Shown here: piece by piece, positions 9,196-62,690 of the stretch | Numbering within the stretch: the stretch's first letter is position 1 | How the letters are laid out: each line of letters opens with the position of its first letter | Assembly: GCF_023055435.1 (NCBI RefSeq) | Contig: NW_025963902.1 | Span: forward strand, 2,667,815 to 2,731,814 | Direction of reading: 5' to 3' | Origin: Haliotis rufescens | Lineage: Eukaryota | DNA: 64,000 bases | Translations under genes and position numbers: made by a program | The notes under the pieces: model-generated | Database searches by the model: none | Told to the model about the DNA's origin: nothing | What the model saw: the letters and a program-made list of their open reading frames with translations, nothing else

Positions 9196-9398
9196 TTATT
9201 GTTTAACGCCGCACTCCAGTATTTCAGCTATATGCCGGCGGTCTGTAAATAATCGAATCTGGACCAAACAATCCAGTGATTGACATCATGAGCATCGATC
9301 TACATATGAGGATACGATGATATACATGAACAAAGTCAGCGAGCCTGACCAGTCGATCCCGTTCGTCACCTCTAACGACAAGCATAGTCGCATCCTGA
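9196..9398 (-). mobile_element. SINE family C copy
   Basis: Matches the family-C body. Confidence 0.5.
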
Positions 9399-10887
9399 GA
9401 TAAGAAATGGGTGACCTAATACAATCACTAATTAATAGTGATTCCTAAACTCGAAATCGTACAATGGACTTTGCTTTTAGCAGAGAATTCCTCTGAATAT
9501 GGCGCATTTATTATGTGTACTTCATGCTTATTACACACAAATCACACTTTTTGTTGCACTCGCACGCAGGATATCTGCACAACAGTCTACGGTATATAAA
9601 TGGTAGCATTCTGTTGACAACACGTTACACAATTGTATTTTCAACATTACATTGCATGCATAATTCTACAGAGATAATGAAGTTTCATTGATACGAACTG
9701 ATAACATCTTTCAACAATCGTGTGTTATTTAACTTAAGATATCGTCAACATCAAACTAATTTTCCTACACAGTACATTATAGTTTGTAGTAGTTTGTGCC
9801 CATTGATTACCTTTTGGAAATAATATTTCAGAAAATGAATATCATTTTTACTAGAATGTGAAGCTTATTCAGTGTTTTGAAATAAATATCTAAATGCTCA
9901 ATATAATGTTATCCCTTAGCATAAAAATATTGAGGTATTGTCATCATGTAAATATACTAGCAGCTTTGCTACAATTATTATATTTTATTTCTAAATGCCA
10001 CTTTGCAATGCATAAATGACATACATAGCATTAACATCCATTGTTATTTATCATAATTTGGTATGGAGTTTCCAATAGTGCAGTCAACCTTATATATATG
10101 TAACTTTTCTTCAAATGCACTGCTTTGTACAAACTATTGTGTATATGTGTTCATTGGGGCAATTGCCTGAAACCTCATGAATAATCTAATCACATACAGT
10201 ACAATGTTGTGAAAGGTCTAATTCAAGTTAGTAGCTCACTCATTATAATGCCTATTCCCACCTCTTATCGCTTTGTCTGCTTCTGATAAGTCGAATGGGA
10301 TGCATCGCATGTTTGGTTAACTCCACATGAAGGTTCAGTGTGATTTATCCCAACGGATAAAAAGGTATATGTCAACTGGGGATTTATGGGCATTTAAGGA
10401 TACATATGCAAATATATAAGGTTCATTGTTTACAAACAAATATGGTGTCGCCCTGGTCTATTGGTGGTCGATTCAGAATTGACGATCGGACAAATTACTG
10501 GAATAATTGTTATCGTTATCAACCGTGTCTATAAGGGAGTAGATGAGGCCTTTCAACAGTGAAGGCAACTTTGGATTATAAATCGTGAAGAAGATTTGCA
10601 AGGCAGATATAGCGGGATTCCATATCTGTGCTTGAGGTCTTTTTTCCGATTTACAAAACAGTTTTACCTTTTTTCGTTTCTCGCTGTTTGGGGAATCTGA
10701 CTTCATTTCATAATCCTGTTACAAAACGTTAAAACGCGAGCCAGACTAGAGTAGCTTCCCTTTGGTGACTGTCTGTTTAGTTCCCAAATTACAACGTTTA
10801 TTCCCAATACAGCACATTGACTATCGCAAAACACTCGCAAAACACTCTCGAGTGATAACCTCTATCTGTTAATAATAGTTGTTTTTG

Positions 10888-10975
10888 AGTGAGTGAGTAT
10901 GGTTTTACGCCGCATTTAGCAATATTCCATCAATATCACGGCGGAGGACACCAGAAGTTGGTTTCGACAATGTTC
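10888..10975 (-). mobile_element. SINE family A, tail-proximal fragment
   Basis: gagtgagtgagtatggttttacgccgcatttagcaatattccatcaatatcacggcgg. Confidence 0.4.
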
Positions 10976-11246
10976 TATGTTTGGAAAGTTCCAATATTAA
11001 TAATCATATGTAACCACTAAAACTGTTATATTTTGGTAATATCATCTTGATAAGAAATTTGCAAACATATTGACACAATGTAAGGGGGCCCTTACTGTGA
11101 AGACTTCGTACGAGGGTACTACTAGTATATGTGAAACTCATTCTTGCTTCCCAACGCCGTAATATGTCTGCAAGAACGCTAACATGGCGTAAAACCCAAC
11201 TTACGCACTATTATGATTCAACACGATACAGTATCACTGGTCGGCA

Positions 11247-13667: not shown

Positions 13668-14235
13668 ATGCTTCGCAGTGCGGGTGTTTACAGGCGTCGC
13701 GGGGAACGTTATGCACGAAACTGCATACAGGAAGTGGACAGGTTTGGAGGTGTTATTGTGATGATGGGGGCAGATATCTCCTACGCTTGTAGAACAGTCT
13801 TGGTGCTAGTTTTGGGTGAATTTAACGGCACAATGTTTCAGGGAAGAGATTCTTCGGCCACACGTCCTTCCGATTATGCGGCAAGCGAACGTCATTTTCC
13901 AACAAGACAACGCCCGACCTCACCCGGCAAGACTGACAACAGTTTTGTCCATGCATCACAAGATCCAGGTCCAGCCATGGCTCTCCTTGACTCCAGATTT
14001 TAACCCAATCGAACATTTATGGGACGCACTGGATCAACGACTGTGAGCACGTCAGCAACAACCACAGAACCCCGACAGTTGGCATAAGCACTGCAGACAG
14101 AGTGGGAGAACATTCCTCAGGCAACAATTCGGAATCTGATTGTTCCATGGGTACAACGATGCCAGTCAGTTTTAAACTCTGATGGTGGCCAAACAAGATA
14201 TTGATAAATAGATGACCTTCACCTTGAAAATCCAA
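13668..14235 (+). mobile_element. Tc1/mariner transposase fragment (frameshifted)
   Basis: ORFs 13668..14003 and 13816..14046 contain IFQQDNARPHPARLT ... SLTPDFNPIEHLWDALDQRL. Lies in intron 2 of the TSR gene. Confidence 0.6.
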
Positions 14236-16920: not shown

Positions 16921-17178
16921 TATTGTTGTTTTACGCTGCACTCAGCAATATTCCAGCTATATGACGGCGGTCTGTAAGTAATCGAGTCTGGACCAGACAA
17001 TCCAGTGATTAATATCATGAGCATCGATCCACGCAATATGGATCGAGGACAAGCCTCAACCAAGTCAGGGAGCCTGACCACCCGATCCCGTTAGTCGCCT
17101 TTTACGACAAGCATAGTCACCTTTCACGGCAAGCATGGGTTGCTGAAGACCTATTCTACCCCGGAATCTTCACGGGTT
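16921..17178 (-). mobile_element. SINE family C, full copy
   Basis: Matches the family-C body. Lies in TSR-gene intron 1. Confidence 0.55.
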
Positions 17179-22095: not shown

Positions 22096-23040
22096 CTACA
22101 ACGTCTTGGGTTGTGGTTGACGTCGGCGTAGCCGTCTATCCAATTCATCCCACTGGTGCTCTATCGGGTTCAAATCCGGGGATCTGGAGGTCCAGGGGAG
22201 AACCTTAACGTTGTTTTTGTGTAGACAGGCTCTTGTGATCCTTGCTGTATGCGGTCGAGCGTTGTCTTGCTGGAATACACCGTTGCCGTTGGCTGCAATT
22301 GGAAGGACGTGTGGTAGGAGAATTTCGTTGCTGTGTCGTTGAGTCGTAAGATTACTCTGGATATTGATTAAACCTGTCCTGCCATGATGAGAGATATCCG
22401 CCCACATCATAACGCTACCCCTACAAAACCTGTCCACTTCCTGTATGCAGTTTCCGGCGTAACGTTCTCCCTGACGTCTGTACACCCGTTCTCTACCATC
22501 CCCTCGACGAAGGAGAAATCGTCGCTGAACCAGACATCTCTCCATCGAAGTTGAGGCCATACCCTGTGTTGACGACATCAATGCAGTCGTTGGTGACGAT
22601 GTTGTGGACTCAATATGACGCATCGAACAGGACGTCTCGCTCGTAGACCTGCTGCTCTATAAGGTTTCTTACGGACTGCTCGGATATTCTGCGCAGTCCG
22701 GGTATTTGGGATGCGGTTGAAGTTGTTGTGATCGTCCTTTCACGTAGGTGGCGCAGTCGGATGTAGCGATCTTGGACGGGGGTGGTTACTCTTGGTCCTC
22801 CCGACCTTGGCCGATCACGTGTTAACCCATGCTGTTAAAACCGATCCCATAGCCTTGTGATGGTGCTGGGCGTTATATTGAAAACCTTGGCTACAGCTGA
22901 TCGTGATTCCCCTGCCTGTAAGCGGCCTATGACGTTGTTTCGTTGCACTTTTGTTAATCTTGGCATGTTGTTGAACTGTCACTGTTCGATCGACGCCGAT
23001 GCCAGGCAATAAAAAAACCCTGCACTTTAATACCGTTCAT
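22096..23040 (-). mobile_element. Tc1/mariner-family transposase relic (pseudogene)
   Basis: Track ORF 22096..22623(-) contains FQQDNARPHTAR ... WTSRSPDLNPIEHQWDELDRRL, the DD34E catalytic C-terminus of Tc1-like transposases. Upstream frames carry fragmented N-terminal DNA-binding region with frameshifts. Confidence 0.65.
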
Positions 23041-27050: not shown

Positions 27051-27214
27051 CTACAAATGTATATATATAACAATAATCGGGTGACCGGTCTCGGATTATG
27101 AAAATGCACACATAGGTCCACACAGTTACAGGAAGTGGGGTGAAATTGCGTTTAACGTTGCATTTATGATTAGTTCACTTATTTAGCGATGTTTTTCTGT
27201 GTTTATGTTGTTTA

Positions 27215-27417
27215 ACGCCGCAATCAGCAATCTTAATCTTGCAGCTATATGACGGTCGTCTGAAAATAATCGAGTCTGGACCAGACAATCCAGTTATTGG
27301 CACCATGAGCATCGACCCATGCAATTGGATACGATGACATGCATCAACTAAGTCAGCGAGCCCGACCAACCGATCCCGTTAGTCGCCTCTTTCGACAAGC
27401 ATGGGTTGCTGAAGACC
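27215..27417 (-). mobile_element. SINE family C copy
   Basis: Abuts a truncated SINE D at its 5' end. Confidence 0.5.
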
Positions 27418-29324: not shown

Positions 29325-29405
29325 ATGAGGGTGACGGCAACACTGGCAGTCATGTTGGGGCTTGTGTTATGCAGCTGTATGGTTCAAGGTCAAACTCGGC
29401 AACAG
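29325..29405 (+). CDS. Gene 1 (N-glycosylated secreted protein with internal repeat), exon 1: signal peptide
   Basis: ATG in an acc atg a context. Encodes MRVTATLAVMLGLVLCSCMVQGQTRQQ, a hydrophobic signal peptide, then donor cag|gtaaag, phase 0. Position taken from the frame of track ORF 29283..29525. Confidence 0.5.
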
Positions 29406-30261
29406 GTAAAGATCTTTATGTTTTCAATAATTCGTCTTATGATTTTCCAATCCTTTATCTCGGAAATTACTCTTAGGAGTTCTCATTTTTTGAAACCTTG
29501 GAATGGGGATGTTTCAACAAGATAATTTTGCGCCAAATAAAGTAATTGTAAATCTCTACACACAAACATGCAGCCATTAAGGGGAGGAATAATACACCAT
29601 CAGTACATTGCCGCGATATCGCTTCACTGCTGCTGACTGAGGCGACAAACAACAACACAACATATAAAAGGGTAGCGGAGTTTCCGAAGGACGATTGTGG
29701 CCTGATCTTAAAGTATCTCACCTAAAACATGAATGTCGAATTGTGATTGGCTTAGGCCCATTCTGTTGTTTTCAATGTACCCCAATAACACGTAAGGTGC
29801 ATTTCTTATATTTCCCGCTCGGATTGCCGAACTGTGGTAACATACCAACCGCATTTGTATCTCGAACTGAGGATGTATTTACGAAATTTTAGAAATGAAA
29901 TTATTAAATAAGTTTCTTTATTGCCATTGCTAATTTTCCAAAATGTTTAATTCTTACCGACTGAGATCATGGCATGCATACATAAGACATATATTAGGTG
30001 TGCAGTTAGAAAACTTCTTGGTCCTCTGGTTCCCCCGGTGACACAGGTTAATGTACCCTCAGTGTTAATTTAAGTTACTGGTGGACAACTTATAATATAT
30101 GCCATTGGAATCATCTAGTCTAATGTAACTGTTGACACGATGCCCGGACATTTCTATTTTCACCACAAAGCATCCGTTGCAATGATGCTAATGTTAACAT
30201 TGTAGATAAACATTTCACTAAAACATACAGCATTCAAAATTGAGTTGATTGTGTATTTCAG

Positions 30262-30438
30262 CGTCGCCGAGCAAAAGTTTTAAGAAGTAGATGGTCACGT
30301 GACATCGATACAAACGTAACCGTAAAGGAAGCGGCAGCCATTTTGAAGTCCAAAGAGAGAATATTTTTCCGATCCTCTGACAGACGGCTGACAGCTTTGA
30401 ACATCACACGATCCTACTCCTACATCGACTACAGCAGC
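30262..30438 (+). CDS. Gene 1 exon 2 (polybasic plus N-glycosylation sites)
   Basis: Acceptor tgattgtgtatttcag|c and donor cagc|gtgagt. 177 nt, phase 0-0, no stop. Encodes RRRAKVLRSRWSRDIDTNVTVKEAAAILKSKERIFFRSSDRRLTALNITRSYSYIDYSS. Not in the ORF track because it has no Met. Confidence 0.4.
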
Positions 30439-30469
30439 GTGAGTATATACACATCCTTATTTGGAAATA

Positions 30470-31200
30470 ACTGATCATACTCTGATTTATCACGAGTTAT
30501 ATCACGGAACGTGAGCTTGATGTGAACATATCACGGCGCGTCAGCTTCATGTGAACAGTATTTCAGTTATACCACGGCACGTCAGCTTGACGTGTGATGT
30601 GAACAGTATTTCAGTTAGCTTTCACGTCAGCTTGATGTGTGGTGTAAACAGTATTTCAGTTATACCACGGCACGGCACGTCAGTTTGACGGGTGATGTGA
30701 ACAGCATTTCAGTTATACCACGGCACGTCAGCTTGACGTGTGATGTGAACAGTATTTCAGTTATATTACGGCACGTCAGCTTGACATGTGATGTGAACAG
30801 TATTTCAGTTATATTACGGCACGTCAGCTTGACGTGTGGTGTAAACAGTATTTCAGTTATATTACGGCACGTCAGCTTGACGTGTGATGTGAACAGCATT
30901 TCAGTTATATTACGGCACGTCAGCTTGACGTGTGATGTGAACAGCATTTCAGTTATATTACGGCACGTCAGCTTGACGTGTGATGTGAACAGCATTTCAG
31001 TTATATTACGGCACGTCAGCTTGATGTATGATGTGAACAGTATTTCAGTTATATTACGGCACGTCAGCTTGATGTGTGGTGTGAACAGTATTTCAGTTAT
31101 ATCACGGCATGTGAGTTTGCTGTGAACAATATTTCAGCTATATTACGGCACGTCAGTTTGACGTGTGATGTGAACAGTATTTCATTTATATCACAGTGCG
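30470..31200. repeat. Minisatellite, 48-bp unit, about 14 copies, each unit containing the inverted repeat cacgtca-gct-tgacgtg
   Basis: ORFs 30637..31125(+) and 30660..30995(-) show 16-aa periodic peptides. Lies in gene 1 intron 2 immediately after exon 2. Confidence 0.7.
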
Positions 31201-31299
31201 TCAGCTTGATGTGAAATTTTGACCTCTCTTTAGTCTGTACAAAGTTAGATCCTTACAATAACGGACACTACAGTATCCCAATCGGTACAACGCTTGTTC

Positions 31300-31705
31300 C
31301 GAACGATAAATAGCTCGATTTATCATCCAAAACTGGCTCCTACAGGAGATAACGCTTGGATGAGATCGAATGAAATTACATCACAATGCTTTGCAGACCA
31401 TTGTGACATCACTGGTTACCATGACGTCACAATCAAATGACATCACTAATGGCTCAGCTACTGAAGCTGTTTGCAGTACTTTTCACACTGAAAACACTGC
31501 TAATTACTATCTACAAAATGAAAAAGTTGAAAGAATGATGTTGGATGATACATAAAATCTCACCCGAGTGTCTTTTGATATCAGATATATCAACACTCGT
31601 TGATAAAAGTGGCAAATATCCTCGGCAAGCCTCGGCATTTTTCCACTTTTATCAACTCGTGTTGATATATTTGATATCAAAAGACACTCGGGTGAGATTC
31701 TCTAT
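31300..31705 (+). mobile_element. Same hairpin-ended repeat family, copy 2
   Basis: Near-identical nucleotide sequence to copy 1 (ORF 31370..31555) plus a complete hairpin at 31555..31700. Confidence 0.45.
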
Positions 31706-34344
31706 ATATTTGCGATGTTACCAATGATTTCGGCTTACCGATCTTCAAGTACTTTGCCCTCTACCAACACCCGAATAATTCAAAGGGCTACAATATCCAC
31801 CACCAGTGAGCCATATTTAAAACAGTAACATTATGCGAAGCTAAAACAAAAATCTCTTTCTGTTCCCAAGTCATGACACTGAGTTTCGTAATATTAACTG
31901 CATATAAGTATTCTCTACATGTTTTTACTTCCCTCTATCACGACTGTCTGTTTATGTTTCATTTGCTCGTTACTACACAGGTCCTCGTAATACCCATTAG
32001 GACAGAACAAGGGCTGTTACGACGTAAATTGTAATAAAAAGGTAAATTGTAATACTTGCAGCAAATTGTAATAATTTTGACGTAAATTGTAATAACAACG
32101 TAAATTGTAATAAAATTTGACGTAAATTGTAATACGCAAATTGTAATAAAAATTGACATAAATTGTAATAATCTCAACTTGCGGTAAAATGTAATAACTT
32201 TTTACGTAAATTGTTATAACCTTATAAGTTTAGTGTCAAAGGCATTAAAAGACTAGAACCTATCCTTGTCAGGGTTGGTACAGGGTTTATCGTACAATCG
32301 TCATTAAAGTATGGGTTTTGGGGAGGATTGAGGTCGTTATCGTACATTGTTGTATAATTATATGTATATATAAACGCATTGGAATTTCATTTCTATGGTT
32401 GCCCAGAAGAGGATTAATTACTAGAATGAACTTAGTTTTCTTATTTATTTGAGAAATACTCCTTGTGTTTTGTACTTAATTGTAATTTATATATCCTATT
32501 GACGATTTTCATCATAATTGTTCATATTTAACCTAATGGAATCATATTTCAATTGGTAAAGTAGGTAGTAATATACACAATGGAATAATTATAACGTAAC
32601 AAACTTACACAACTATATTGATGTATGAATGTGGAAAGTCTGACTTTTACTGACTGAAGCAAATTTATTTATTTTGCAACTGTATGTTTGTACAGATTTT
32701 ATGCGGAGAGGGGTTTACTAAGTTGCAAGAACTTGTCCCCATTACAATTCTGATTTTGTGAATAAAATATGTTTAAACTAAACTAAACTAGCAAATGGAT
32801 GGCATGTCATTCTGCAGTAGTCTGTGTGCAAGCTGATTTATACATGTTCATATACATAATATCAATTTATTATTATTCAAGTTTCAATTTTTTTAACGTT
32901 GCTCGGAGGATGTAAAGCAAATAATGACAATGTCCTGGGCGATGTACATGTAGATATGTGAACCCGCAAGGACTACCTTTATCAATTATTTTACGTGCAG
33001 CTTGTGTCATGTCTGTATTGTTAGAATGATACTCTAGCAACTGTACACATCGAAATTTATGACTGAAAGATCCACCCTCGGGTTAAAAATGATGGATTCG
33101 ATAGGTAGGTCTATTCGACAAATAGGTTAATTGTTTTATCATCCAATACTAGCTTAGCTAGGAGTCCATTGCAATAACGTTGAGTGACGAGTTACCGAAG
33201 AGAGCTCTGTGCAACCGGACCCTGAAATTATGTCGATTTGCATTGGAGGTTTACTTAATTTGATAAGGAGCACATGACCGTTTCCTTGAAACAAACGAGA
33301 CAATTCAATCGTATTTATACATTATATTTTGACGAAGAATTCAAATTTCAACAAATGAGTGTCAGATCTCCTGTGCAATGTCAAAGGAAAAAACCAGTCG
33401 TCAGCAAATGCAGCATAGATTTCCCATGCATGGGAAAGGAGAATACTGAATACATAAAATTATATACAATGTTTTTATTAATATCAAAAGAGGGGCGTGG
33501 ATATTCTTTACCTACATTGCATATACTATTAGATATTGAGTACTCTCGATCTCTGTGAACTTCTCACAGATAAAGAAATAATAATAAATAAATGCAAACC
33601 ATGTTAACTTATGCAATATTTGTAGCAATGTATGATTAACATATGGATCATTAATATAACATAAAATATTTCCTTTCATAGGAAGAAGTATATTTAATGA
33701 AATAAATGAATAAATGTAACTGTCTGGATTCCTTTCACATGTCATGAAGAACTAACAACAACTTACTGACAACTTTTGCTGGGATAAAAACTCCTTGCCC
33801 CAACAAGAAAAACAGAATCCATCATGATAACGGCACGAAATCATAATTCAAAGCATACACAAATAATATCCGGTATCTTCGGGCATGTCTTGTTGAGTTT
33901 CAAAGAGCATCAGAATGTATAATTAATTTGTTGCAATCAATTATTGCTGAAATATATCTATTTTGATCAAAATTGAAAGGATGGAAAATCTATAATGCAA
34001 AGGGTTTTGTCACTAACGTAAATATTCTCTTTGACCTTATACGAAGAGTATTCTAAGATCATTAAACTCGGCAATCGTTGGTGGATTGCGCAAAGCAACC
34101 TTGATACCAAATTTGGTACCTCACGTATAATGCGGTACATAATTTTCATAATTTTTCATAAGTTATCACTAATTTGTGACATATAGACGGACAAAAATTA
34201 CCTCAGAGGATAATCTTCTCTGGGGGTTTAAGAGGATTAAAATAATTCCAGCTAACATCAAGCACTGTAATAAAATATTGAAATTATGGCATACCTTCTT
34301 AACAATGCAATGAAAAGAATAGTGACTAGCTAAGAAACCAAATT

Positions 34345-34456
34345 ATATGTATGTGTGTATGTATGTATGTATGTATGTATGTATGTATGTATGTATGTAT
34401 GTATGTATGTATGTATGTATGTATGTATGTATGTATGTATGTATGTATGTATGTAT
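34345..34456. repeat. (ATGT)n microsatellite, 5' flank of hAT copy 1
   Basis: About 27 units. Continues at 36117..36230 on the other side of the hAT insertion. Confidence 0.8.
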
Positions 34457-36116
34457 TAGTGGTGTAACGATACGGCGATACAGTATTGTATCCCGATGCA
34501 CAGCCCACGATACGATGCATCGATTTGGAAAGCATGTATCGCGATACATACGATATTTTCATAACAGCAGTTATACCTACCGTATTTTCTTGAGTATAGT
34601 GCGCACTTTTTTCCTAAAAACACAGCTGTGTAGAAGGGGTTGCTCATTGTACACGAATTAATGAGTTTTGATGTTTTTCCCCCATGGAAAGACATTACCG
34701 TGAGCACGTAACCCCGGAAATACCATGTCAACAAATCCATACTGAAGTTCGCAAATTATTCATGTAATTACACTGTCTGGCTATAAAAAAAGTGTTCTTT
34801 GAATATCTGGACTCATGTTTGTAACTTATTTCATTAATTTTATTCAAAATTCCTTTTAATATTGTTATAATTAATTTCGGCGAAATCGTGTGTGAAGCGA
34901 TCGGAAGATCGCACAACTCACCGTTATTAACAGCAACCCCCGGTCAGATTACCGCTATTGACGCCTTGAAAGGAATTTTAGTTGACAGAGAATGGATACA
35001 TATATCATAAATGCCATACTTTGATTCGTCAAAAGTCAGATTTGTTTTTGTTGGACGATTATATGTCAACACATAATTCTCGCGATCACGCGATCACGTG
35101 CACGGGAGCCTTGACGGTGTCTGGTCAGACTGGTTCCATGTAAAAAATAATACCCGGCAATAGCGATCAGCTGCTTCGCTTAGGGTTATTATTATTTTAA
35201 ATATGTTTAGTAAAAGCTGCATCTAAATTAACAATATATTGGAATATATTATTCCTGATAAAAAAATAGTTTTAGATACAACTTTTGCCGATCCTTGCAT
35301 TAAAATACTGAAAAGTTCTATCATTGGGTGTGTCTTGCCCGAATCACCGGTAGATTCCAAGAAAACGTGTGTACATGTACAGCTGATTGCTGTGTCCGGC
35401 TTAGTTTACGAGAAAATACACAAGGTAATCTTAATCCCTGGATATAAAACAATGCCTAGCTGAACAAAAAATACAATTTAAACGGTAAATCAACATGTCT
35501 GGTGATTTTTTATCTCAAATTTCGAATTTGTACTAACGAAGTTTCTCATCACCCGTTCGTTTGCCGGACTTCGCTGAAGGGGTACGGTGTAATTTTTTTC
35601 TGCGCATAATATTCATATTTCTTTTTTTCCAAAATATTGAACCCGCTAGAGGGGCGTGCGCATTATACATCGGTGCGCACTATACTCAAGAAAATAGATG
35701 AAATACATGGGCGGATACAGCTTTTTTGAAAAGGGGGGGTGCACAATTAAGATCTATTTATTATTGTCTTTGGTGGTAATTTATACAGAAATAAAGATTT
35801 TTTTCTAAATAAAAAGGTGTGTGTGTGTTGGGGTGGGTGGGGGTGGGGTGTGTGTGCGCCCATGAAATACTTTAACAGTTTCAAAGCCAGTTTGTTGTTT
35901 CAGTAAAACATACTGTATTGCTGACAATTTACTATAACAGTAAATAAACACCTTATATCTTCTTCAACTGTACTTGTCACATATTTTAGATAGCAGAAAG
36001 ACAGCAACTTGGCTTAGCTTGTACCAGTAAACACTGTATCGTGATACGTATCGTATCGCGACCCCTGTATCGGGATACGTATCGTATCGCGACCCTCCCG
36101 TATCGTTACACCTCTA
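34457..36116 (+). mobile_element. Nonautonomous hAT-like DNA transposon, copy 1 (1660 bp)
   Basis: 19-bp TIRs TAGTGGTGTAACGATACGG ... CCGTATCGTTACACCTCTA. Subterminal GATACG-type repeats. Perfect 8-bp TSD gtatgtat. Inserted in an (ATGT)n microsatellite. No long ORF. Near-identical to copy 2. Confidence 0.7.
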
Positions 36117-36230
36117 GTATGTATGTATGTATGTATGTATGTATGTATGTATGTATGTATGTATGTATGTATGTATGTATGTATGTATGTATGTATGTAT
36201 GTATGTGTGTATGTATGTATGTATGTATGC
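36117..36230. repeat. (GTAT)n microsatellite, 3' flank of hAT copy 1
   Basis: About 27 units. Confidence 0.8.
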
Positions 36231-38183
36231 CAGTAAATACGACCGCTATATGTCATTGGTATCAGATCTATGACTGCACTTCTACATATAGTTCCAAGTG
36301 AAAGATGAGTGACACTACTTTGTGAGAGGTCCCACAAAAATGCTGATACGAGCAATTAAAGGTTATTCAAAATGTAGCAAATGAACAAAGTAAGATACGA
36401 GATCGTATTTTAAAAGATAAAATAGAAACACAAACCTGTAGATATACTCCGAACAGTTGGAGTACATATATATACAAAGGTACAAAACTGTTTAGAAAAG
36501 GTTGGTACAGCATTTATCGTACAATCGTCATTAAATATGACTTAGTGTGGGGTGTGAGAACTTTTTGAAACTTGATATATAGAACATTGTTGTTTATATA
36601 TATGGAGTGTTATTTCTGTAGGTTAAGTACGTTGTTATCAACACAATGTATTAATATATAAAAATATTTGTTTGGGATGCTTTCCTTGCATTTAAAGTGT
36701 GTTAGCAGTAGTTGAAAATAGCGATTCAGCATGAAACCAAATTTGAAATGGGGTGAAACAGTTGTTACATAGTGTATGAAATACCCTCTGAAGACATATA
36801 TTGCAGTCTCAAATTTAGAAGTTTTAACTCAATATCAGAAAAAAAAGTGATAAGGGTAGGCAATTAGAACAATCGGAGCAAAATATAATTTGACTTTTTG
36901 GTAAGTCACCAGTCATTTCATTGGTATTTTAAGAGAGTATGTTATTACAGTGCTTGACGTTAGCCTAAATTACTTTAATCCTCTTAATCTTTCAGAGGAG
37001 GTTATGTTTTCAGGGGATTATTGTACGTATATATTTCGTATCAAGGTTTCTTGGCGCAATCCACCAACGATTGTCGAGTTTTATGATCTTCAAGTACGTT
37101 TCAAGGTCAAAGAGAAAATTTACTTTAGTGGCAATCATATTTTCATTATTCATTTTCAATTCCTTTCCATTTGGATACAAGCAGATATATTTCAGCAATT
37201 GATTGCAAGAAATTTAAGATAATTCGTATACTCTTTGCAACTGTACAAGAGTTATCCGAAGATACCGGATGTTATTTGTGTATGCACGGGATCTGTCAAC
37301 TCATTTGTTGTGTTTGAATTCTTCGTCAAAATATAAATATGATTAAATTCCCTCGTTTGTTTCAAGAAAAGGATCATGTACTCCTTATCAACTCGTATAG
37401 CGTTTCCACTGAAAATCGACACACTGGTTGATCAGCCTGTGTTTGTACACTTCGTCATCACTCGTTCAGTCGTGTCGAACTGGTCAACGTACTGTTGAAG
37501 CAAGTCATGCAAAAAACATCTTGAATAGCCTTATAAGAGAATTGAACAATATGTCTCAATTAAGTTATTTGTCGAATATACGGTTGTGTAACCCATCATT
37601 TTGAACCCGAGGATGGATCTTTCAGTCATTTAAATTTATCGATGTTGACACCACCCTTTAATGACGATTGTACGATAAAGGCTATACCAACCATCCCTAA
37701 CTTAACAGTTTTGTACGTTTGTCATCATACACAGTATTACTCGAATTGTACATGTGAAACGCAAGCTCAACTGACAAAGATCATTTCTAGTCAATTGGCG
37801 TCTTGGACACTACGGTAGTAAGGTTATTACAATTTACGTAAGAATTTATTACATTTTACCGCAAGTAGAGATTATTACAATTTACGTCAATTTTTATTAC
37901 AATTTGCGTATTACAATTTACGTCAAATATCATTACAATTTACGTTGTTATTACAATTTACGTCAAAATTATTACAATTTGCTGCAAGTGTTACAATTTA
38001 CCTTTTTATTACAATTTACGTCGTAACAAGGGCATATCTACCTGTTAAGTCCCACCTCCTTCAGTCTACGGCTACTGGATGACGTGGTACCCCTTTTGGC
38101 AGGAACGCTGTTTGTACCCAAATGTTGCTTGTGTTCCACCTAAAACGTTGGTAACATGGAAATGACAATTCTATTTGCTACAG

Positions 38184-38294
38184 GACATGGTGGTGACTAA
38201 AGCCTACGTGTCAGGGAGCCGGAAGTGCATCGTCCTCCCAGGAAATATCACCGAGGACTTCAATACCACCATGACTGACATACTGGCCAGGAAG
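38184..38294 (+). CDS. Gene 1 exon 3
   Basis: Acceptor ttctatttgctacag|g and perfect donor aag|gtgagt. 111 nt, phase 0-0. Encodes DMVVTKAYVSGSRKCIVLPGNITEDFNTTMTDILARK. Frame of track ORF 38175..38378. Confidence 0.5.
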
Positions 38295-38371
38295 GTGAGT
38301 TGTGTGTTGAGGGGCGGGGTGAGGGATGGGGTTGTGTGTCTGGGGGTGGGGGGTGTGGGGGTGAGGATGCA

Positions 38372-39190
38372 GATGTAGGGACATCTTGATGCAAGATAGG
38401 ACTGAGGATGCAGATGTAGGGACATCTTGATGCAAGATAGGACTGAGGATGCAGATGTAGGGACATCTTGATGCAAGATAGGACTGAGGATGCAGATGTA
38501 GGGACATCTTGATGCAAGATAGGACTGAGGATGCAGATGTAGGGACATCTTGATGCAAGATATGACTGAGGATGCAGATGTAGGGACATCTTGATGCAAG
38601 ATAGGACTGAGGATGGAGGTGTAGGGACATCTTGATGCAAGATAGGACTGAGGATGCAGATGTAGGGACATCTTGATGCAAGATAGGACTGAGGATGCAG
38701 ATGTAGGGACATCTTGATGCAAGATAGGACTGAGGATGCAGATGTAGGGACATCTTGATGCAAGATAGGACTGAGGATGCAGATGTAGGGACATCTTGAT
38801 GCAAGATAGGACTGAGGATGCAGATGTAGGGACATCTTGATGCAAGATAGGACTGAGGATGCAGATGTAGGGACATCTTGATGCAAGATAGGACAGAGGA
38901 TGCAGATGTAGGGACATCTTGATGCAAGATATGACTGAGGATGCAGATGTAGGGACATCTTGATGCAAGATAGGACTGAGGATGGAGGTGTAGGGACATC
39001 TTGATGCAAGATATGACTGAGGATGCAGATGTAGGGACATCTTGATGCAAGATAGGACTGAGGATGCAGATGTAGGGACATCTTGATGCAAGATAGGACT
39101 GAGGATGCAGATGTAGGGACATCTTGATGCAAGATAGGACTGTGGATGCAGATGTAGGGACATCTTGATGCACGATAGGACTGAGGATGG
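38372..39190. repeat. Minisatellite, 41-bp unit (ggatgcagatgtagggacatcttgatgcaagataggactga), about 20 copies
   Basis: Three 330-aa minus-strand ORFs are read-through artefacts (41x3 = 123 nt, giving 41-aa periodicity). Starts about 75 bp after the gene 1 exon 3 donor, preceded by a G-rich stretch. Confidence 0.7.
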
Positions 39191-39654
39191 AGGTGTTGAA
39201 CCATCCATGTCCGTGTGATCTTATTTGTTGTATGAGCTATTAATGTTATCGTCCATACCAACATGGTTTAGAAATGTTGTTTTCTTATTTGAAAGCCGGA
39301 TTGGTAAACAAGCAAACACTTATTTATATAAATACCGCTCCTGGAAAACAGATCATCATAAGTACCTGTGGGGGTCGTTAAAAGAGCCCACACATTCGTT
39401 AAAAGTATGGCTATGTCGCGTCATTCTGTATACAACACAGCCCTGACAAGACAAACCTGTGTCTTAAAAAATAAGAAGACATTAATGCAACGATGAAACA
39501 CAACACGCAAAATCACAGATTCCGCGAGCAAATCCTCGTTTTAGGCATATCTTATACACTTAGTAATTATATGACCTGCTTTCTCCCGGCAACGGGAAGA
39601 AGTCGCTGAAGTTAATTTACATGTAGTATGTGACTGGGTGAATCAACAAGTGGA

Positions 39655-45202: not shown

Positions 45203-45560
45203 TGAGGTGAGGTGAGGTGAAATGGGGTTTAACGTCGCGTCCAAGATTATTGCACTTATATAGCGACGTGCACGTACGTGTGTGTGTTTGTGTGGCTGCT
45301 TGTACTAGTCCGGACTGATGCCGATTATAGTGCTAGCTCACTGAGATACCATGCCGCAGTTTAACACGAATACCCCACTCAGACACAGTATACTGACTCC
45401 AAGCCGACCAGTCCTTGTTTTAGCCCCTAAATGCCGAGCGCCAGACAGGGTAACAACAAGTACTATCTTTTAACGTCTTTTGGTATGACGCAGCCGGGGA
45501 TCGAACCCCGGACCTTCCGCTCTGCGGGCGGACGCTCTACCACTAGACCACGGAGGCGGT
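45203..45560 (-). mobile_element. SINE family D, full copy, about 230 bp upstream of the gene 2 start
   Basis: Reverse complement of the 15835 copy. Confidence 0.6.
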
Positions 45561-49899: not shown

Positions 49900-51050
49900 T
49901 TGACGTTGACGCACACGTCTCCTTATCGAGTCCTAGACGTGTTCAGTGGGGGACCATCTGGGCTCATTACTGGACATGGCTTTCTAGGGATGTTGTGCTG
50001 CTGGAGGTGAGCCTTGACGATTCGTGCACGGTGGGCATGGACGTTGACGTCCTGAAAGACAAAACGTCGACCCACACGTCTTGCAAACTGGACAACAAAT
50101 GGTGTCAGTATATTTTCCCGATAGTACTGTCCAGTGACCATTCCTTGCACGATATGAAGTGGAAGTGAATCGGAATTCATTTGAAAAGATGACACATGGC
50201 CAGCGACGATTACCCCAGTTTCGACGTGTAAACCATTGCCGTCTGTAGGCAATATGACGATTTGTAAGGGGCGACACAACACGTGGTCATCGAGCATGGA
50301 GACGAGCTGCATGTAGACGATTTCTAAGCGTGTGACCCGTAATTCGTACTCGAGTAGCGTGAAGAACGTTTGCAGAAATTTGATTCACCGTTTGAGCTCG
50401 ATTTCGAAAAGCCTGGACCGCCTCTGTGGCCTGGTGTTAGAACGTCCGCCCGGAGAGCGGAAGGTCTGGTGTTCGATCCTTGGCCGAGTCGTACTAAAAG
50501 ACGTTAAAAGATGGTACATGTTGTTACCCTGCCTGGCGCTAGGCATACAGCGGGTAAAACAAGGACTGGTTGGCTCGGAGTCAGTATACTGTGTCTGAGT
50601 GAGTTATTCATGATAAACTGTGGCATGGTATCTCAGTGGGCAAGCACTATACAATCGGCATTAGTCCGGACTAGTACAAGCAGCCGCACCCCAACACCCA
50701 CGTACACGCACATCGCTATATAAGTGCAACAATTTTAAACGCGATGTTAAACACCATTTCACGTCACCTCACCTCGCAGAGCCTGGTTTTGGACCAATCG
50801 ATAACATTGTCGTCAACATGGGACACCCTGAACGTGGTTGATCGTCGACATTTATGGTATGTTGATACCTTTTCCATGGTCCGCTATTCCCAGACTGTGA
50901 AACATTGAACGTATTGGCCACAGCACGCTGACGTCTGTCTGTTTCAAGCAAGTTAATTGCACGTAGGCGCTCTGCGCGTTGCAGACACCGCATCGCCAGT
51001 TCAAACACAAACAAAGAATGAAAATCAAGTAAATCACAAGTGTATGATAG
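49900..51050 (-). mobile_element. Tc1/mariner relic split by a SINE D insertion
   Basis: ORF 50769..51014(-) carries the N-terminal motif VDDQPRSGCPMLTT. ORF 49923..50312(-) carries degenerate C-terminal transposase similarity (FVFQDVNVHAHRARIVKAHL). SINE D at 50420..50777 sits between them. Confidence 0.45.
50420..50777 (+). mobile_element. SINE family D copy inserted in a Tc1 relic
   Basis: Matches family D full length. Confidence 0.55.
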
Positions 51051-51410: not shown

Positions 51411-51670
51411 GTGAAGATCCGGGGTAGAATAGTTCTTCAGCAACCCATGCTTGCCATAAAAGGCGACTATGCTTGTCGTAAGAGGCGACTAACGTGATCG
51501 GGTATCAGGCTCGCTGACTTGGCTGATGCATGTCATCGTATCCCAATTGCGTGGATCGATGCTCATGATATCAATCACTGAATTGTCTGGTCCAGACTCG
51601 ATTATTTACAGACCGCCGTCATATAGCTAGAATATTGCTGAGTGCGGCGTTAAACAACAAACAAACAAAC
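51411..51670 (+). mobile_element. SINE family C, full copy
   Basis: cgtgaagatccggggtagaatagttcttcagcaacccatgcttgcc ... (caaa)n. Confidence 0.55.
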
Positions 51671-55878: not shown

Positions 55879-56044
55879 AGTGAGTGAGTGAGTATGGTTT
55901 TACGCCGCTTTTAGCAATATTCCAGCAATATCACGGCGGGGGACACCAGAAATGGGCTTCACACATTGTACCCATGTCGGGAATCGAACCCGTGTCTTCG
56001 GCGTGACGAGCGAACGCTTTAACCACTAGGCTACCCGACCGCCC
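55879..56044 (-). mobile_element. SINE family A, full copy
   Basis: Reverse complement of the 16298 copy with high identity. Confidence 0.6.
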
Positions 56045-59879: not shown

Positions 59880-60200
59880 AAAACTGACTCCCACAGAAGA
59901 TGGCGTTTGGGTGAGATCAAGTGATATCTACATTGTAGATATCGCTGCAATGAAATGGCATCACAATGCTTTGGAGACCATTGTGACGTCATGGGTTACC
60001 ACTAATGGCTCTGGTACTGAAGCTGTTAGCAGTACTTGTTACACTTAAGACACTGCTTATTAATGTCCACAAACTGTAAAAGTTGAAAGAGTGATGTTTG
60101 ATGATAAATTAAATCTCACCCTCGTGTCTTTTGATATCAAGTATATCAACACTCGTTGATAAAAGTGGAAAATCGCCTTGGCAAGCCTCAGGGCTTTTTC
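59880..60200 (+). mobile_element. Same hairpin-ended repeat family, copy 3 (second hairpin arm truncated)
   Basis: ORF 59806..60048 shares ..IAAMKWHHNALETIVTSWVTT.. The hairpin first arm is at 60113..60170. Lies in gene 3 intron 1. Confidence 0.4.
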
Positions 60201-60547
60201 CACTTTTAACACTCTCTCTATACAACATATACTATGTATTCAATGAGGATGAAGATAGTAACATGCTTTAATGAGTGAGTGAGTTACACGTCACATCGGC
60301 ATTATTTCAGCCATACACCGACCAATAAGTGATGTAGCCACTTCAACATAATTAATGTATATAAATGTACAATTAATCTGGACAGATGTTTCAGAGTGGA
60401 TATAGATTTAGGTGATAATGTTTCACGTAATTTACACGTTTGGACAGATATAACAATTCTTTGAGATATAAACAGCCATACCCACAGCAGTCTGTATATA
60501 GTTGTGTCTGTGACAGGCAAGCTAAACACGCCGTCACGAAGACATGC

Positions 60548-60655
60548 TCATTATATTAATCACTGGATTGTCTGGTCCAGACTCGATTATTTACAGACCG
60601 CCGTCATATAGCTGGAATATTGCTGAGTGCGGCGTTAAACAACAAACCAAAAAAA
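60548..60655 (+). mobile_element. SINE family C, 3' half
   Basis: atcactggattgtctggtccagactcgattatttacagaccgccgtcatatagctggaatattgctgagtgcggcgttaaacaac. Confidence 0.45.
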
Positions 60656-60668
60656 TCCTTCAGTATAC

Positions 60669-62690
60669 GACCGCCTCCGTGGTCTAGTGGTAGAGCATCC
60701 GCCCAGAGAGCGGCAGGTCCGGCGTTCAATCCCCGACCGCGACATACCAAACAACGTTAAAAAATGGTACTTGTTGTTACCCTGTCTGGCCCTCGGCATT
60801 AAGGGGCTAAAACAACGACTGGTCGGTCAGTAAACTGTGTCTGAGTGGAGTATTCATGTTAAACTGCGGCATGGTATCTAGAGGTGTAACGATACGGGAG
60901 GGTCGCGATACGATACGTATCCCGATACAGGGGTCGCGATACGATACGTATCACGATACAGTGTTTACTGGTACAAGCTAAGCCAAGTTGCTGTCTTTCT
61001 GCTATCTAAAATATGTGACAAGTACAGTTGAAGAAGATATAAGGTGTTTATTTACTGTTATAGTAAATTGTCAGCAATACAGTATGTTTTACTGAAACAA
61101 CAAACTGGCTTTGAAACTGTTAAAGTATTTCATGGGCGCACACACACCCCACCCCCACCCACCCCAACACACACACACCTTTCTATTTAGAAAAAAATCT
61201 TTATTTCTGTATAAATTACCACCAAAGACAATAATAAATAGATCTTAATTGTGCACCCCCCCTTTTCAAAAAAGCTGTATCCGCCCATGTATTTCATCTA
61301 TTTTCTTGAGTATAGTGCGCACCGATGTATAATGCGCACGCCCCTCTAGCGGGTTCAATATTTTGGAAAAAAAGAAATATGAATATTATGCGCAGAAAAA
61401 AATTACACCGTACCCCTTCAGCGAAGTCCGGCAAACGAACGGGTGATGAGAAACTTCGTTAGTACAAATTCGAAATTTGAGATAAAAAATCACCAGACAT
61501 GTTGATTTACCGTTTAAATTGTATTTTTTGTTCAGCTAGGCATTGTTTTATATCCAGGGATTAAGATTACCTTGTGTATTTTCTCGTAAACTAAGCCGGA
61601 CACAGCAATCAGCTGTACATGTACACACGTTTTCTTGGAATCTACCGGTGATTCGGGCAAGACACACCCAATGATATAACTTTACAGTATTTTAATGCAA
61701 GGATCGGCAAAAGTTGTATCTAAAACTATTTTTTTATCAGGAATAATATATTCCAATATATTGTTAATTTAGATGCAGCTTTTACTAAACATATTTAAAA
61801 TAATAATAACCCTAAGCGAAGCAGCTGATCGCTATTGCCGGGTATTATTTTTTACATGGAACCAGTCTGACCAGACACCGTTAAGGCTCCCGTGCACGTG
61901 ATCGCGTGATCGCGAGAATTATGTGTTGACATATAATCGTCCAACAAAAACAAATCTGACTTTTAACGAATCAAAGTATGGCATTTATGATATATGTATC
62001 CATTCTCTGTCAACTAAAATTCCTTTCAAGGCGTCAATAGCGGTAATCTGACCGGGGGTTGCTGTTAATAACGGTGAGTTGTGCGATCTTCCGATCGCTT
62101 CACACACGATTTCGCCGAAATTAATTATAACAATATTAAAAGGAATTTTGAATAAAATTAATGAAATAAGTTACAAACATGAGTCCAGATATTCAAAGAA
62201 CACTTTTTTTATAGCCAGACAGTGTAATTACATGAATAATTTGCGAACTTCAGTATGGATTTGTTGACATGGTATTTCCGGGGTTACGTGCTCACGGTAA
62301 TGTCTTTCCATGGGGGAAAAACATCAAAACTCATTAATTCGTGTACAATGAGCAACCCCTTCTACACAGCTGTGTTTTTTAGGAAAAAAGTGCGCACTAT
62401 ACTCAAGAAAATACGGTAGGTATAACTGCTGTTATGAAAATACATGCGATATATGCTTTCCAAATCGATGCATCGTATCGTGGGCTGTGCATCGGGATAC
62501 AATACTGTATCGCCGTATCGTTACACCACTAATGGTATCTCAGTGAGCTAGCACTATAAATCGACATCAGCTCGGACTAGTACAAGCAGCCACACACACG
62601 TGCATGCATGTCGCTATATAATTGCAATAATCTTGGACACGTCGTTAAACCCCATTTCACCACACCTCATCTCCTTCAGTATACTCTGCA
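60669..62690 (+). mobile_element. SINE family D copy disrupted by the hAT copy 2 insertion
   Basis: The two SINE halves join exactly across the hAT element plus its 8-bp TSD. Lies in gene 3 intron 1. Confidence 0.6.
60879..62531 (-). mobile_element. Nonautonomous hAT-like DNA transposon, copy 2 (1653 bp), inserted into a SINE D copy
   Basis: Same TIRs in inverse orientation. Perfect 8-bp TSD atggtatc. Internal sequence is near-identical to copy 1: track ORFs 34728..34916(-) and 62079..62267(+) translate identically. It splits the SINE D at 60669..62690. Confidence 0.7.

What the first reader, a model, noticed from the sequence alone, without database searches (positions are those of the whole stretch)
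32006..38033. Candidate 6-kb foldback-type transposon: long inverted termini built from 22-bp tandem subrepeats, 9-bp flanking direct repeat, nested hAT
About 32015-32335 and 37637-38024 are inverted copies of each other. Their outer roughly 230 bp are arrays of the 21-22-bp subrepeat acgtaaattgtaataa.... The inner parts carry the shared motif ggttggtacag..tttatcgtacaatcgtcattaaag. The direct repeat AACAAGGGC occurs immediately outside both ends, consistent with a 9-bp TSD. The interior holds a second inverted pair (about 34020-34150 and 36990-37140), a third partial arm copy (36490-36640) and the hAT insertion. This organisation, long TIRs made of tandem repeats with a variable interior, is what Foldback-type elements look like. 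Such TIR arrays are recombinogenic and can drive rearrangements. The whole structure lies inside gene 1 intron 2.
Basis: partly seen in the sequence, partly recalled or inferred. Interest (0 to 1): 0.6.

Follow-up and report, generated by a model that had tools for sequence, protein, structure and literature searches.

The report
Foldback-type DNA transposon in abalone intron
A 6-kb non-coding "foldback" jumping gene, whose two ends are mirror-image arrays of a repeated 15-base motif, sits in an intron of an abalone gene and is cleanly absent from the same intron in a related abalone; it is a well-documented but ordinary kind of mobile element.

Summary
Window 32015-38028 is bounded by inverted arms: 258 nt at 91% identity, then a shared 36-42-nt inner motif. 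Each arm carries 10 copies of the core AAATTGTAATA (8 match the 15-nt form ACGTAAATTGTAATA) at identical distances from the ends. The motif occurs nowhere else in the 64 kb.

The host is a Haliotis (abalone) gene, and the element lies in intron 2. The orthologous Haliotis rubra intron has an intact empty site, AACAAGAGC followed directly by ATATCTACC. So the whole 6,019 bp is one insertion, not two independent repeats.

No coding capacity was found, so the element is non-autonomous. A 1,660-bp hAT-type element with an 8-bp duplication is nested in a central (TATG)n microsatellite. It has a 99% identical sibling at 60878-62533.

The superfamily is unresolved. The 9-bp flanking repeat AACAAGGGC fits Mutator/Foldback elements. 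However, its first four bases also complete a flush TGTTACG...CGTAACA inverted terminus. A 5-bp duplication (AGGGC) with integrase-type TGT...ACA ends is therefore equally compatible. No other copies could be reached with these tools.

Verdict: a new member of a known kind, of low to moderate interest.

The parts
32006..32014 (.). Left flanking direct repeat AACAAGGGC (target-site duplication; only the last 5 bases, AGGGC, if the 5-bp reading is right)
   Evidence: Read directly. H. rubra carries this 9-mer once, as AACAAGAGC at L001 9872-9880.
32015..32314 (+). Left terminal inverted repeat. It starts with TGTTACG. A zone of 10 subrepeat cores runs to 32219, followed by a less conserved spacer and the inner motif GGTTGGTACAGGGTTTATCGTACAATCGTCATTAAA (32273-32308).
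   Evidence: The outer 205 nt are 96% identical to the right arm; nt 206-258 are only 70% identical.
32315..34345 (+). Left inner arm, non-coding. Blocks 33047-33133, 33231-33368, 33853-34112 and 34178-34348 are inverted copies of right-arm blocks. Stretches 32315-33046 and 33369-33852 are specific to the left arm.
   Evidence: BLAST self-comparison, the repeat finder pairs I2-I13, and no Pfam hit in a six-frame translation.
34346..34456 (+). (TATG)n microsatellite, left half (about 28 units). Its last 8 bases, GTATGTAT, are the left duplication of the nested hAT.
   Evidence: TRF and the sequence itself.
34457..36116 (+). Nested non-autonomous hAT-type element (1,660 bp). Its ends read TAGTGGTGTAACGATACGG ... 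CCGTATCGTTACACCTCTA, with an 8-bp duplication GTATGTAT.
   Evidence: A 99.0% identical copy lies at 62533-60878 with its own 8-bp duplication GATACCAT, which fixes the ends. No ORF exceeds 104 aa within it; one 113-aa ORF (36014-36355, minus strand) starts in the flanking microsatellite and runs about 100 nt into its end.
36117..36229 (+). (TATG)n microsatellite, right half (about 28 units). Its first 8 bases are the right duplication of the nested hAT.
36230..36882 (+). Central unpaired region. It contains a third, truncated arm copy (36474-36604) in the same orientation as the left arm. That copy shares a 78-nt piece with the right arm that the left arm lacks.
   Evidence: (D6, D10, I9, I21).
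36883..37650 (-). Right inner arm, the inverted counterpart of left blocks 33047-34348 (70-80% identity)
37651..38028 (-). Right terminal inverted repeat: inner motif (37657-37692), an extra 78 nt (37693-37770), then the 258-nt arm with 10 subrepeat cores (37824-38028), ending ...CGTCGTAACA.
38025..38033 (.). Right flanking direct repeat AACAAGGGC. Positions 38025-38028 (AACA) can be read instead as the last 4 bases of the inverted repeat.

Best explanation
Window 32015-38028 (or 32015-38024) is a single copy of a non-autonomous, cut-and-paste (class II) DNA transposon with foldback architecture. It inserted into intron 2 of an abalone gene after that lineage separated from Haliotis rubra.

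Shown:
- One 6,019-bp block is present here and absent from the orthologous site.
- The block ends in inverted repeats and is flanked by a direct repeat of the target.
- It has no coding capacity.

Inferred:
- A transposase supplied in trans by an autonomous relative binds the roughly 10 copies per arm of the 15-nt motif ACGTAAATTGTAATA.
- That transposase pairs the two ends, excises the element, and integrates it at a staggered cut whose repair produced the flanking duplication.
- The outer 205 nt that carry the motifs are 96% alike between arms, while the adjoining arm sequence is only 70-80% alike. This gradient is what is expected if only the motif zone is functionally constrained, or homogenised, in the family.
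- The long inverted arms can snap back into a hairpin in single-stranded DNA or in the intron RNA.

After insertion, the centre acquired or carried a (TATG)n microsatellite, into which a young hAT-type element jumped.

The most likely superfamily is Mutator in the broad sense (the Foldback/Phantom/Tm1-like lineage). This rests on a 9-bp duplication plus inverted repeats made of about 15-bp repeats. It remains provisional.
For: - Inverted arms of 258 nt at 90.7% identity, E = 6e-100.
- The motif occurs 16 times against 0.5 expected, and only in the arms.
- There are 10 cores per arm at identical offsets, with an identity gradient of 96% falling to 70%.
- Collinear inverted blocks run through both arms.
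- The 9-bp direct repeat abuts both ends.
- The H. rubra orthologous locus is collinear for exons 1-5. It has an ungapped empty site with one copy of the 9-mer, at 78% identity over 246 nt across the junction.
- No part of the 6 kb is found in the H. rubra locus or elsewhere in the window.
- The six-frame translation gives no Pfam family and has about one stop per 16 codons.
- The two arms pair at -329.5 kcal/mol, against -87.9 +/- 3.7 when the right arm is shuffled.
- Literature: foldback elements are defined by long, internally repetitive inverted repeats and a non-coding middle, and most belong to Mutator, with 8-10-bp duplications (PMC4079207). Tm1 combines 9-bp duplications, short asymmetric outer motifs and 13-15-bp tandem repeats in its inverted repeats (PMC3169594).
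Against: - Only one copy could be examined. No second copy, no autonomous relative and no transposase were found, so family membership and trans-mobilisation are inferred.
- The 9-bp reading makes the left end 4 nt longer (TGTT) than the right. Those 4 nt are exactly complementary to the first 4 nt of the duplication, a 1-in-256 coincidence.
- Without an outgroup, insertion here versus precise loss in H. rubra is polarised only by the transposon-like anatomy.
- The subrepeats are irregularly spaced rather than forming a clean tandem array.
Confidence: 0.85

Rival explanations
1. The element is the same kind of thing (a non-autonomous transposon with foldback architecture) but belongs to an integrase-like superfamily (Ginger2/TDD-like). 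On this reading the true ends are flush, TGTTACG...CGTAACA (32015-38028). The duplication is 5 bp (AGGGC), and the extra AACA match on the left flank is a coincidence.
For: - With ends at 32015 and 38028 the inverted repeat is perfect from the first base for 38 nt. All 10 motif copies then sit at identical distances from both ends.
- The 5' end TGTTA fits the TGTNR pattern reported for Ginger1/2 and Gypsy termini.
- TDD-4/5 make 5-bp duplications, and Ginger2 occurs in a gastropod, Littorina (PMC2836005). The characteristic duplication for Ginger2 is given as '4 or 5 bp' (PMC10045372).
- The empty site is equally compatible with this reading.
Against: - Metazoan Ginger2 elements make 4-bp duplications and prefer AT-rich RTATAY targets (PMC2836005). 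Here the target AGGGC is GC-rich.
- This reading also needs a 1-in-256 coincidence: host AACA matching the element's end.
- No foldback-type Ginger2 element is described in the papers read.
- Two Ginger2-like loci retrieved with the Littorina integrase core show no similarity to this element. That result is uninformative, because their host organisms are unknown.
Confidence: 0.3
2. The structure is two independent insertions of an unrelated repeat in opposite orientation, with host intron DNA between them. The flanking 9-mer would then be a coincidence.
For: The inner parts of the arms are much more diverged (70-80%) than the tips, and a third partial arm copy exists. This shows the interior has a complex history.
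Against: - In H. rubra the sequences immediately left of 32015 and right of 38033 are contiguous, with one copy of the 9-mer and no gap.
- Nothing between the arms is homologous to the H. rubra intron.
- Neither arm has its own pair of ends or its own duplication.
- An exact 9-mer abutting both ends has a chance of about 4e-6 per placement.
Confidence: 0.03
3. The structure is not a transposon. It is a local inverted duplication (a fold-back rearrangement from replication template switching or hairpin-capped break repair), or it is ancestral sequence that H. rubra deleted.
For: Polarity (gain here versus loss in H. rubra) cannot be fixed without an outgroup. Large palindromes can arise by fold-back repair.
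Against: - Fold-back duplication copies adjacent host sequence. Here no part of the arms matches the flanking intron or the H. rubra locus.
- It would produce neither a flanking direct repeat of the target nor termini packed with a repeated 15-nt motif.
- A deletion ending exactly at both inverted-repeat tips and leaving one 9-mer is what excision or absence of a transposon looks like.
Confidence: 0.04

Closest known systems
Tm1 (Mutator/Foldback family of root-knot nematodes; PMC3169594)
   Same: Both have composite terminal inverted repeats made mostly of a variable number of about 14-bp repeats. In both, a few bases at the extreme ends are not symmetric, a 9-bp flanking duplication is present, many copies are non-coding, and the two arms are about 93% alike.
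   Different: There is no sequence similarity. Here the repeats are irregularly spaced (14-26 nt) rather than head-to-tail, and inverted homology continues for more than 1 kb inward. No Phantom-type transposase partner has been identified. The 9-bp duplication is not unambiguous.
Drosophila Foldback (FB) elements and Tetris (PMC4079207)
   Same: The architecture matches: an outer inverted-repeat domain with tandem subrepeats, an inner domain, a variable non-coding middle, 8-10-bp duplications, rearranged internal forms, and an unknown autonomous partner (as for Tetris).
   Different: The subrepeat is short (15-nt core) and confined to about 205 nt per arm, not expanded into long arrays. The host is a mollusc, and there is no sequence relationship.
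Galileo (P superfamily, Drosophila; PMC3573991)
   Same: It has long, internally repetitive inverted repeats that resemble Foldback. Its repeats carry extra transposase-binding sites (as cited in PMC4079207).
   Different: Galileo makes 7-bp duplications and encodes a P-type (THAP) transposase. Neither 7-bp nor 8-bp duplications fit here.
Ginger2/TDD integrase-type DNA transposons (PMC2836005)
   Same: The termini start TGTNR and end YNACA, and 5-bp duplications occur in TDD-4/5. The family is present in a gastropod.
   Different: Reported inverted repeats are 50-180 bp, and no repeat arrays were noted in the passages read. Metazoan members make 4-bp duplications in AT-rich RTATAY targets.
TU elements of the sea urchin (Liebermann et al. 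1983; recalled from memory, cited only as a foldback example in PMC4079207)
   Same: It is a marine-invertebrate foldback-type element whose inverted repeats have an outer domain of about 15-bp tandem repeats.
   Different: The details (8-bp duplication, about 800-bp inverted repeats) are from memory and were not checked here. No sequence comparison was possible.

Membership tests
Foldback-type elements (structural class) | Long terminal inverted repeats that make up a large part of the element | tested here: met
   Arms of 300-378 nt are alignable end to end. Collinear inverted blocks extend to 34348 on the left and from 36883 on the right. The outer 258 nt of the two arms pair at -329.5 kcal/mol.
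Foldback-type elements (structural class) | Inverted repeats that are internally repetitive (short direct subrepeats) | tested here: met
   There are 10 cores per arm with 14-26-nt spacing. The count is 16 matches against 0.5 expected, all within the arms.
Foldback-type elements (structural class) | A variable middle domain without transposase in most copies | tested here: met
   No Pfam family at E <= 1 in the six-frame translation of 32273-34345 plus 36230-37770. The longest ORF in that scanned part is 94 aa.
Foldback-type elements (structural class) | Mobility: a target-site duplication and empty sites | tested here: met
   A direct repeat abuts both ends, and there is an ungapped empty site in H. 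rubra.
Foldback-type elements (structural class) | A dispersed multi-copy family | not testable with these tools
   No eukaryotic genome DNA collection was available. There are no further copies in the window, in L001, or in the metagenome or viral collections.
Mutator superfamily (FB / Phantom / Tm1 lineage) | 8-10-bp (usually 9-bp) target-site duplication | tested here: inconclusive
   An exact 9-mer is present on both sides, but 4 of its bases double as the end of the inverted repeat, so a 5-bp duplication is equally possible.
Mutator superfamily (FB / Phantom / Tm1 lineage) | An autonomous relative encoding a MULE (DDE) transposase, often with a FLYWCH or SWIM finger | not testable with these tools
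   There is no coding capacity here and no way to search a Haliotis genome for copies sharing these termini.
Ginger2/TDD | Termini 5'-TGTNR ... YNACA-3' | tested here: met
   The ends read TGTTA...TAACA if they are placed at 32015 and 38028. The pattern is taken from PMC2836005.
Ginger2/TDD | 4-bp (metazoan) or 5-bp (TDD-4/5) duplication in an AT-rich RTATAY target | tested here: not met
   A 5-bp reading (AGGGC) is possible, but a 4-bp reading is not. The target AACAAGGGCATAT contains no RTATAY at the insertion point.
Ginger2/TDD | An rve-type integrase-like transposase in autonomous relatives with the same termini | tested here: inconclusive
   525 relatives of the Littorina Ginger2 core were found in the protein collection, none labelled Haliotis. 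The two loci inspected share nothing with this element.
P superfamily foldback-like elements (Galileo) | 7-8-bp target-site duplication | tested here: not met
   Neither a 7-bp nor an 8-bp reading gives matching ends. Only 9 bp or 5 bp are self-consistent.
hAT superfamily (nested element 34457-36116 only) | 8-bp duplication and short inverted termini starting (T/C)A(A/G)NG | tested here: met
   Two independent copies have different 8-bp duplications (GTATGTAT and GATACCAT). Their termini read TAGTG.../...CTCTA. The terminal consensus is from memory.

The most novel reading that the evidence does not exclude
The element is the first recognised foldback-architecture family mobilised by an integrase-like (Ginger2/TDD-type) transposase. 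It would have flush TGT...ACA termini, a 5-bp duplication and arrays of a 15-nt binding motif. That would add a third independent origin of the foldback architecture, besides Mutator and P, and it would be in a mollusc.
Probability: 0.2. Interest if true: 0.45.

Novelty: new member of a known kind. Interest (0 to 1): 0.27.

Why it matters
It gives a cleanly documented transposon insertion in a mollusc, with both ends, the duplication and an orthologous empty site. The full-text searches run here turned up no description of a foldback-type element in abalone or other molluscs.

The insertion makes up 78% of the intron, which is 7.7 kb here against about 2.6 kb in H. rubra. It places a 258-nt near-perfect hairpin, and about 1 kb of weaker pairing, in the pre-mRNA. 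That hairpin could be a substrate for RNA editing or small-RNA production, and a hotspot for rearrangement.

The repeated 15-nt motif is a concrete candidate transposase-binding site, and it can be used to fish out the family and its autonomous partner. None of this is surprising to a transposon specialist.

Tried and rejected
- Other copies by DNA pattern. I ran two metagenome scans, one with two adjacent cores and one with the 23-nt inner motif, plus one viral scan. All gave nothing. The core is absent from the H. rubra locus. nhmmer with six pieces of the element against the rest of the window and L001 gave no hit at E <= 1.
- Other copies through proteins. The reverse strand of the motif is open in all three frames. 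I therefore queried the 5.8-billion-protein collection with concatenated translations of both arms, hoping for ORFs called across related arrays. None scored.
- Coding remnants. X-masked six-frame translations gave no Pfam family.
- RNA genes. There are no Rfam or tRNA hits inside the element.
- Ginger2 partner. I took the Littorina Ginger2 integrase core from the supplement of PMC2836005 and searched with it. There were many hits of unknown origin. The two loci inspected are unrelated to this element.
- Mutator partner.
- KolobokP (PMC9587614) was considered and rejected. It has long terminal direct repeats, not inverted ones.
- Literature searches for foldback elements in abalone or molluscs found no description.
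Full report
WHAT IS THERE

Reading the sequence and running repeat searches confirm a large inverted structure between about 32015 and 38028.

- The outermost 258 nt of each side (32015-32272 and 37771-38028) pair without gaps at 90.7% identity (BLAST E = 6e-100).
- The pairing resumes at a shared inner motif, GGTTGGTA(C/T)AGnnTTTATCGTACAATCGTCATTAAA (32273-32314 against 37651-37692, 88%). Before that motif the right arm has a 78-nt stretch that the left arm lacks.
- The 15-nt motif ACGTAAATTGTAATA, allowing 2 mismatches, occurs 16 times in the 64-kb window. All 16 are in these two arms, 8 per arm. Dinucleotide shuffles give 0.5 +/- 0.67.
- Using the 11-nt core AAATTGTAATA there are 10 copies per arm. 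They begin at 8, 26, 45, 66, 84, 106, 120, 142, 168 and 190 nt from the ends, identically on both sides when the ends are placed at 32015 and 38028.
- The spacing is irregular (14-26 nt). 'Array of 22-bp tandem subrepeats' is therefore an approximation. TRF reports competing periods of 18, 22, 36 and 40.

Four further collinear inverted blocks link the two halves:

- 33047-33133 with 37557-37645
- 33231-33368 with 37290-37421
- 33853-34112 with 37033-37285
- 34178-34348 with 36883-37037

These blocks are 70-80% identical. The element is thus essentially one long imperfect palindrome. The left arm is 32015-34348 and contains two left-specific stretches. The right arm is 36883-38028.

The middle contains a (TATG)n microsatellite, a nested transposon, and 653 nt of unpaired sequence. 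That unpaired sequence includes a third, truncated arm fragment (36474-36604) in the orientation of the left arm. It shares the 78-nt piece with the right arm.

Identity between the arms is graded. It is 96% over the first 205 nt, which carry the motifs (8 mismatches). It falls to 70% over nt 206-258 (16 mismatches in 53 nt) and is 70-88% further in. The two 258-nt tips alone would pair at -329.5 kcal/mol as RNA, against -87.9 +/- 3.7 when the right arm is shuffled.

HOST AND CONTEXT

- The window is eukaryotic, with introns, microsatellites and Tc1-like remnants.
- I assembled three exons by eye: 29326-29406, 30262-30440 and 38184-38296, all in phase with GT-AG borders.
- Their translation found one relative, an uncharacterised Haliotis rubra protein (P0001, 91% identity over exon 3).
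- The H. rubra locus (L001, GCA_003918875.1 contig QXJH01002095.1) is collinear with the window for five exons at 76-87% identity.
- The source is therefore a Haliotis species that is not close to H. rubra, and the element lies in intron 2. The insertion accounts for 6,019 of the 7,743 bp of that intron. The H. rubra intron is about 2.6 kb.

THE DECISIVE TEST: THE EMPTY SITE

In H. rubra the intron reads ...CCGATTAGGAGAAAACAAGAGCATATCTACCTGACG.... I joined the window's left flank, including one AACAAGGGC, directly to the sequence after the second AACAAGGGC. This reconstruction aligns to H. rubra straight through the junction without a gap, at 78% identity over 246 nt.

Nothing from 32015-38024 has a counterpart in the 21-kb H. 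rubra locus or elsewhere in the window. So the whole 6 kb is a single block that is present here and absent there. It is bounded by inverted repeats and flanked by a duplicated copy of the target.

It also makes a local fold-back duplication very unlikely, because such a duplication would copy neighbouring host sequence and leave no target duplication.

CODING CAPACITY

The interior has about one stop per 16 codons. Outside the nested element and the microsatellite, its longest ORF is 94 aa. X-masked six-frame translations of both arms and the centre match no Pfam family at E <= 1. No Rfam family or tRNA lies inside. The element is non-autonomous.

THE NESTED ELEMENT

Positions 34457-36116 have a 99.0% identical copy at 62533-60878, which fixes the ends.

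- The termini read TAGTGGTGTAACGATACGG ... CCGTATCGTTACACCTCTA.
- The two copies have different 8-bp duplications, GTATGTAT here and GATACCAT there.
- An 8-bp duplication and a TAGnG terminus are hAT hallmarks (the terminal consensus is from memory). No ORF exceeds 104 aa within it; one 113-aa ORF (36014-36355, minus strand) starts in the flanking microsatellite and runs about 100 nt into its end.
- The element sits within a (TATG)n tract that it splits into halves of 111 and 113 bp.
- Its near-identity to its sibling shows that it arrived recently, long after the host element.

HOW THE ELEMENT MOST LIKELY WORKS

Shown: a one-block insertion with inverted ends and a target duplication, and no coding capacity.

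Inferred from the general biology of class II elements:

- A transposase encoded elsewhere recognises the repeated 15-nt motif. There are about ten sites per end, all in the same orientation relative to the tip.
- It synapses the two ends, cuts at the tips, and integrates at a staggered break whose fill-in creates the duplication.
- The sharp fall in arm-to-arm identity just inside the last motif copy fits a functional terminal zone of about 205 nt. The deeper palindromic arms are older and unconstrained.

For comparison, extra binding sites in inverted-repeat tandem repeats are reported for Galileo (cited in PMC4079207).

COMPARISON WITH KNOWN FAMILIES

Foldback elements are defined structurally. 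They have long, internally repetitive inverted repeats with outer and inner domains, a variable non-coding middle, and 8-10-bp duplications. Most belong to Mutator, but the architecture has arisen more than once; Galileo, for example, is a P element (PMC4079207, PMC3169594, PMC3573991).

All the structural criteria tested here are met. The closest described analogue is Tm1 of root-knot nematodes. It has 9-bp duplications, a few asymmetric bases at the extreme ends, then a variable number of 13-15-bp repeats. Most of its copies are non-coding, and its arms are about 93% alike (PMC3169594).

THE UNRESOLVED POINT: 9 BP OR 5 BP

The left end reads AACAAGGGC|TGTTACGACG. The right end reads CGTCGTAACAAGGGC.

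- If the duplication is the 9-mer, the element ends at 38024. Its left end then carries four bases (TGTT) with no partner on the right.
- If the ends are flush (TGTTACG...CGTAACA, ending at 38028), the duplication is AGGGC. The host AACA upstream then matches the element's last four bases by chance.
- Each reading needs the same 1-in-256 coincidence, and the empty site fits both.

The flush reading gives termini of the TGTNR/YNACA type typical of integrase-related transposons. Ginger2/TDD occurs in a gastropod, and TDD-4/5 make 5-bp duplications (PMC2836005, PMC10045372). Against this, metazoan Ginger2 elements make 4-bp duplications in AT-rich RTATAY targets, which is not the case here.

The described foldback-type families checked here make 7-10-bp duplications, and Tm1 shows that asymmetric tips occur. 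I therefore favour the Mutator-like 9-bp reading at roughly 55-60%, against about 30% for an integrase-like family.

ATTEMPTS TO SETTLE IT

All failed for lack of a searchable Haliotis genome.

- DNA pattern scans of the metagenome and viral collections gave nothing.
- A protein search with translations of the motif arrays gave nothing.
- A search with the Littorina Ginger2 integrase core returned 525 unnamed relatives. The two loci I inspected are unrelated to this element.
- Literature searches found no description of foldback-type elements in abalone or other molluscs.

VERDICT

It is a non-autonomous foldback-type DNA transposon with a nested hAT, inserted in an abalone intron, with an orthologous empty site as proof. 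It is a new member of a known kind. Superfamily assignment needs other genomic copies. Interest is low to moderate.

Noticed in passing
window 60878-62533 (minus strand): This is a second copy of the nested 1.66-kb hAT-type non-autonomous element. It is 99.0% identical and has its own 8-bp duplication GATACCAT. The family has therefore been active very recently in this genome.
   Followed up: yes
window 34346-34456 and 36117-36229: The (TATG)n tract that received the hAT insertion is split into two almost equal halves (111 and 113 bp, about 28 units each). An interrupting TGTG variant sits at different relative positions in the two halves, so they are not duplicates of each other. Either the insertion hit the middle by chance, or both sides expanded afterwards.
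   Followed up: partly
window 31501-31709, with copies at 6604-6811 and 60059-60211: A palindromic element of about 160-210 bp, of miniature inverted-repeat type (arms of 69 nt, 90% complementary, 22-nt loop), lies just upstream of the foldback element in the same intron. Two further copies are in the window, at 95% and 86% identity.
   Followed up: no
window 30480-31215 (intron 2) and 38362-39200 (intron 3): There are two intronic minisatellites. One has a 48-bp unit (also visible as an 89-bp higher-order period) and about 15 copies. The other has a 41-bp unit, 97% pure, with more than 15 copies. The 48-bp repeat has a weak counterpart in the H. rubra intron (L001 9032-9113).
   Followed up: no
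window 614-731, 1934-2162, 9195-9320, 16923-17111, 27206-27415, 51469-51662, 60544-60647; L001 7358-7587, 10308-10415, 11609-11767: A short interspersed repeat of about 100-230 bp is present in at least seven copies in the window and three in the H. rubra locus, at 80-91% identity. It is therefore a family older than the split between the two species. It is probably a SINE but was not classified.
   Followed up: no
window 45486-45557 and 55969-56040 (minus strand): Two Rfam tRNA matches fall just above the gathering score (31.7 and 31.1 bits). ARAGORN does not call them, so they are likely tRNA-derived repeat heads rather than genes.
   Followed up: no
window 22096-22623, 13668-14003, 49923-50312: These ORFs carry Tc1/mariner-type transposase motifs (for example DNARPHTA...LPWTSRSPDLNPIEHQWDEL). 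They are decayed Tc1-like elements.
   Followed up: no
L003 7577-9932 (ENA ERZ26696514 contig, organism unknown): This is an unrelated foldback-type structure whose two arms are each built from about 15-20 copies of a 20-21-bp unit (TATTTTATCAAAGTGAAATAA). It ends about 70 bp upstream of a Ginger2-like integrase ORF (10001-11056). Whether the two belong to one element was not examined.
   Followed up: partly
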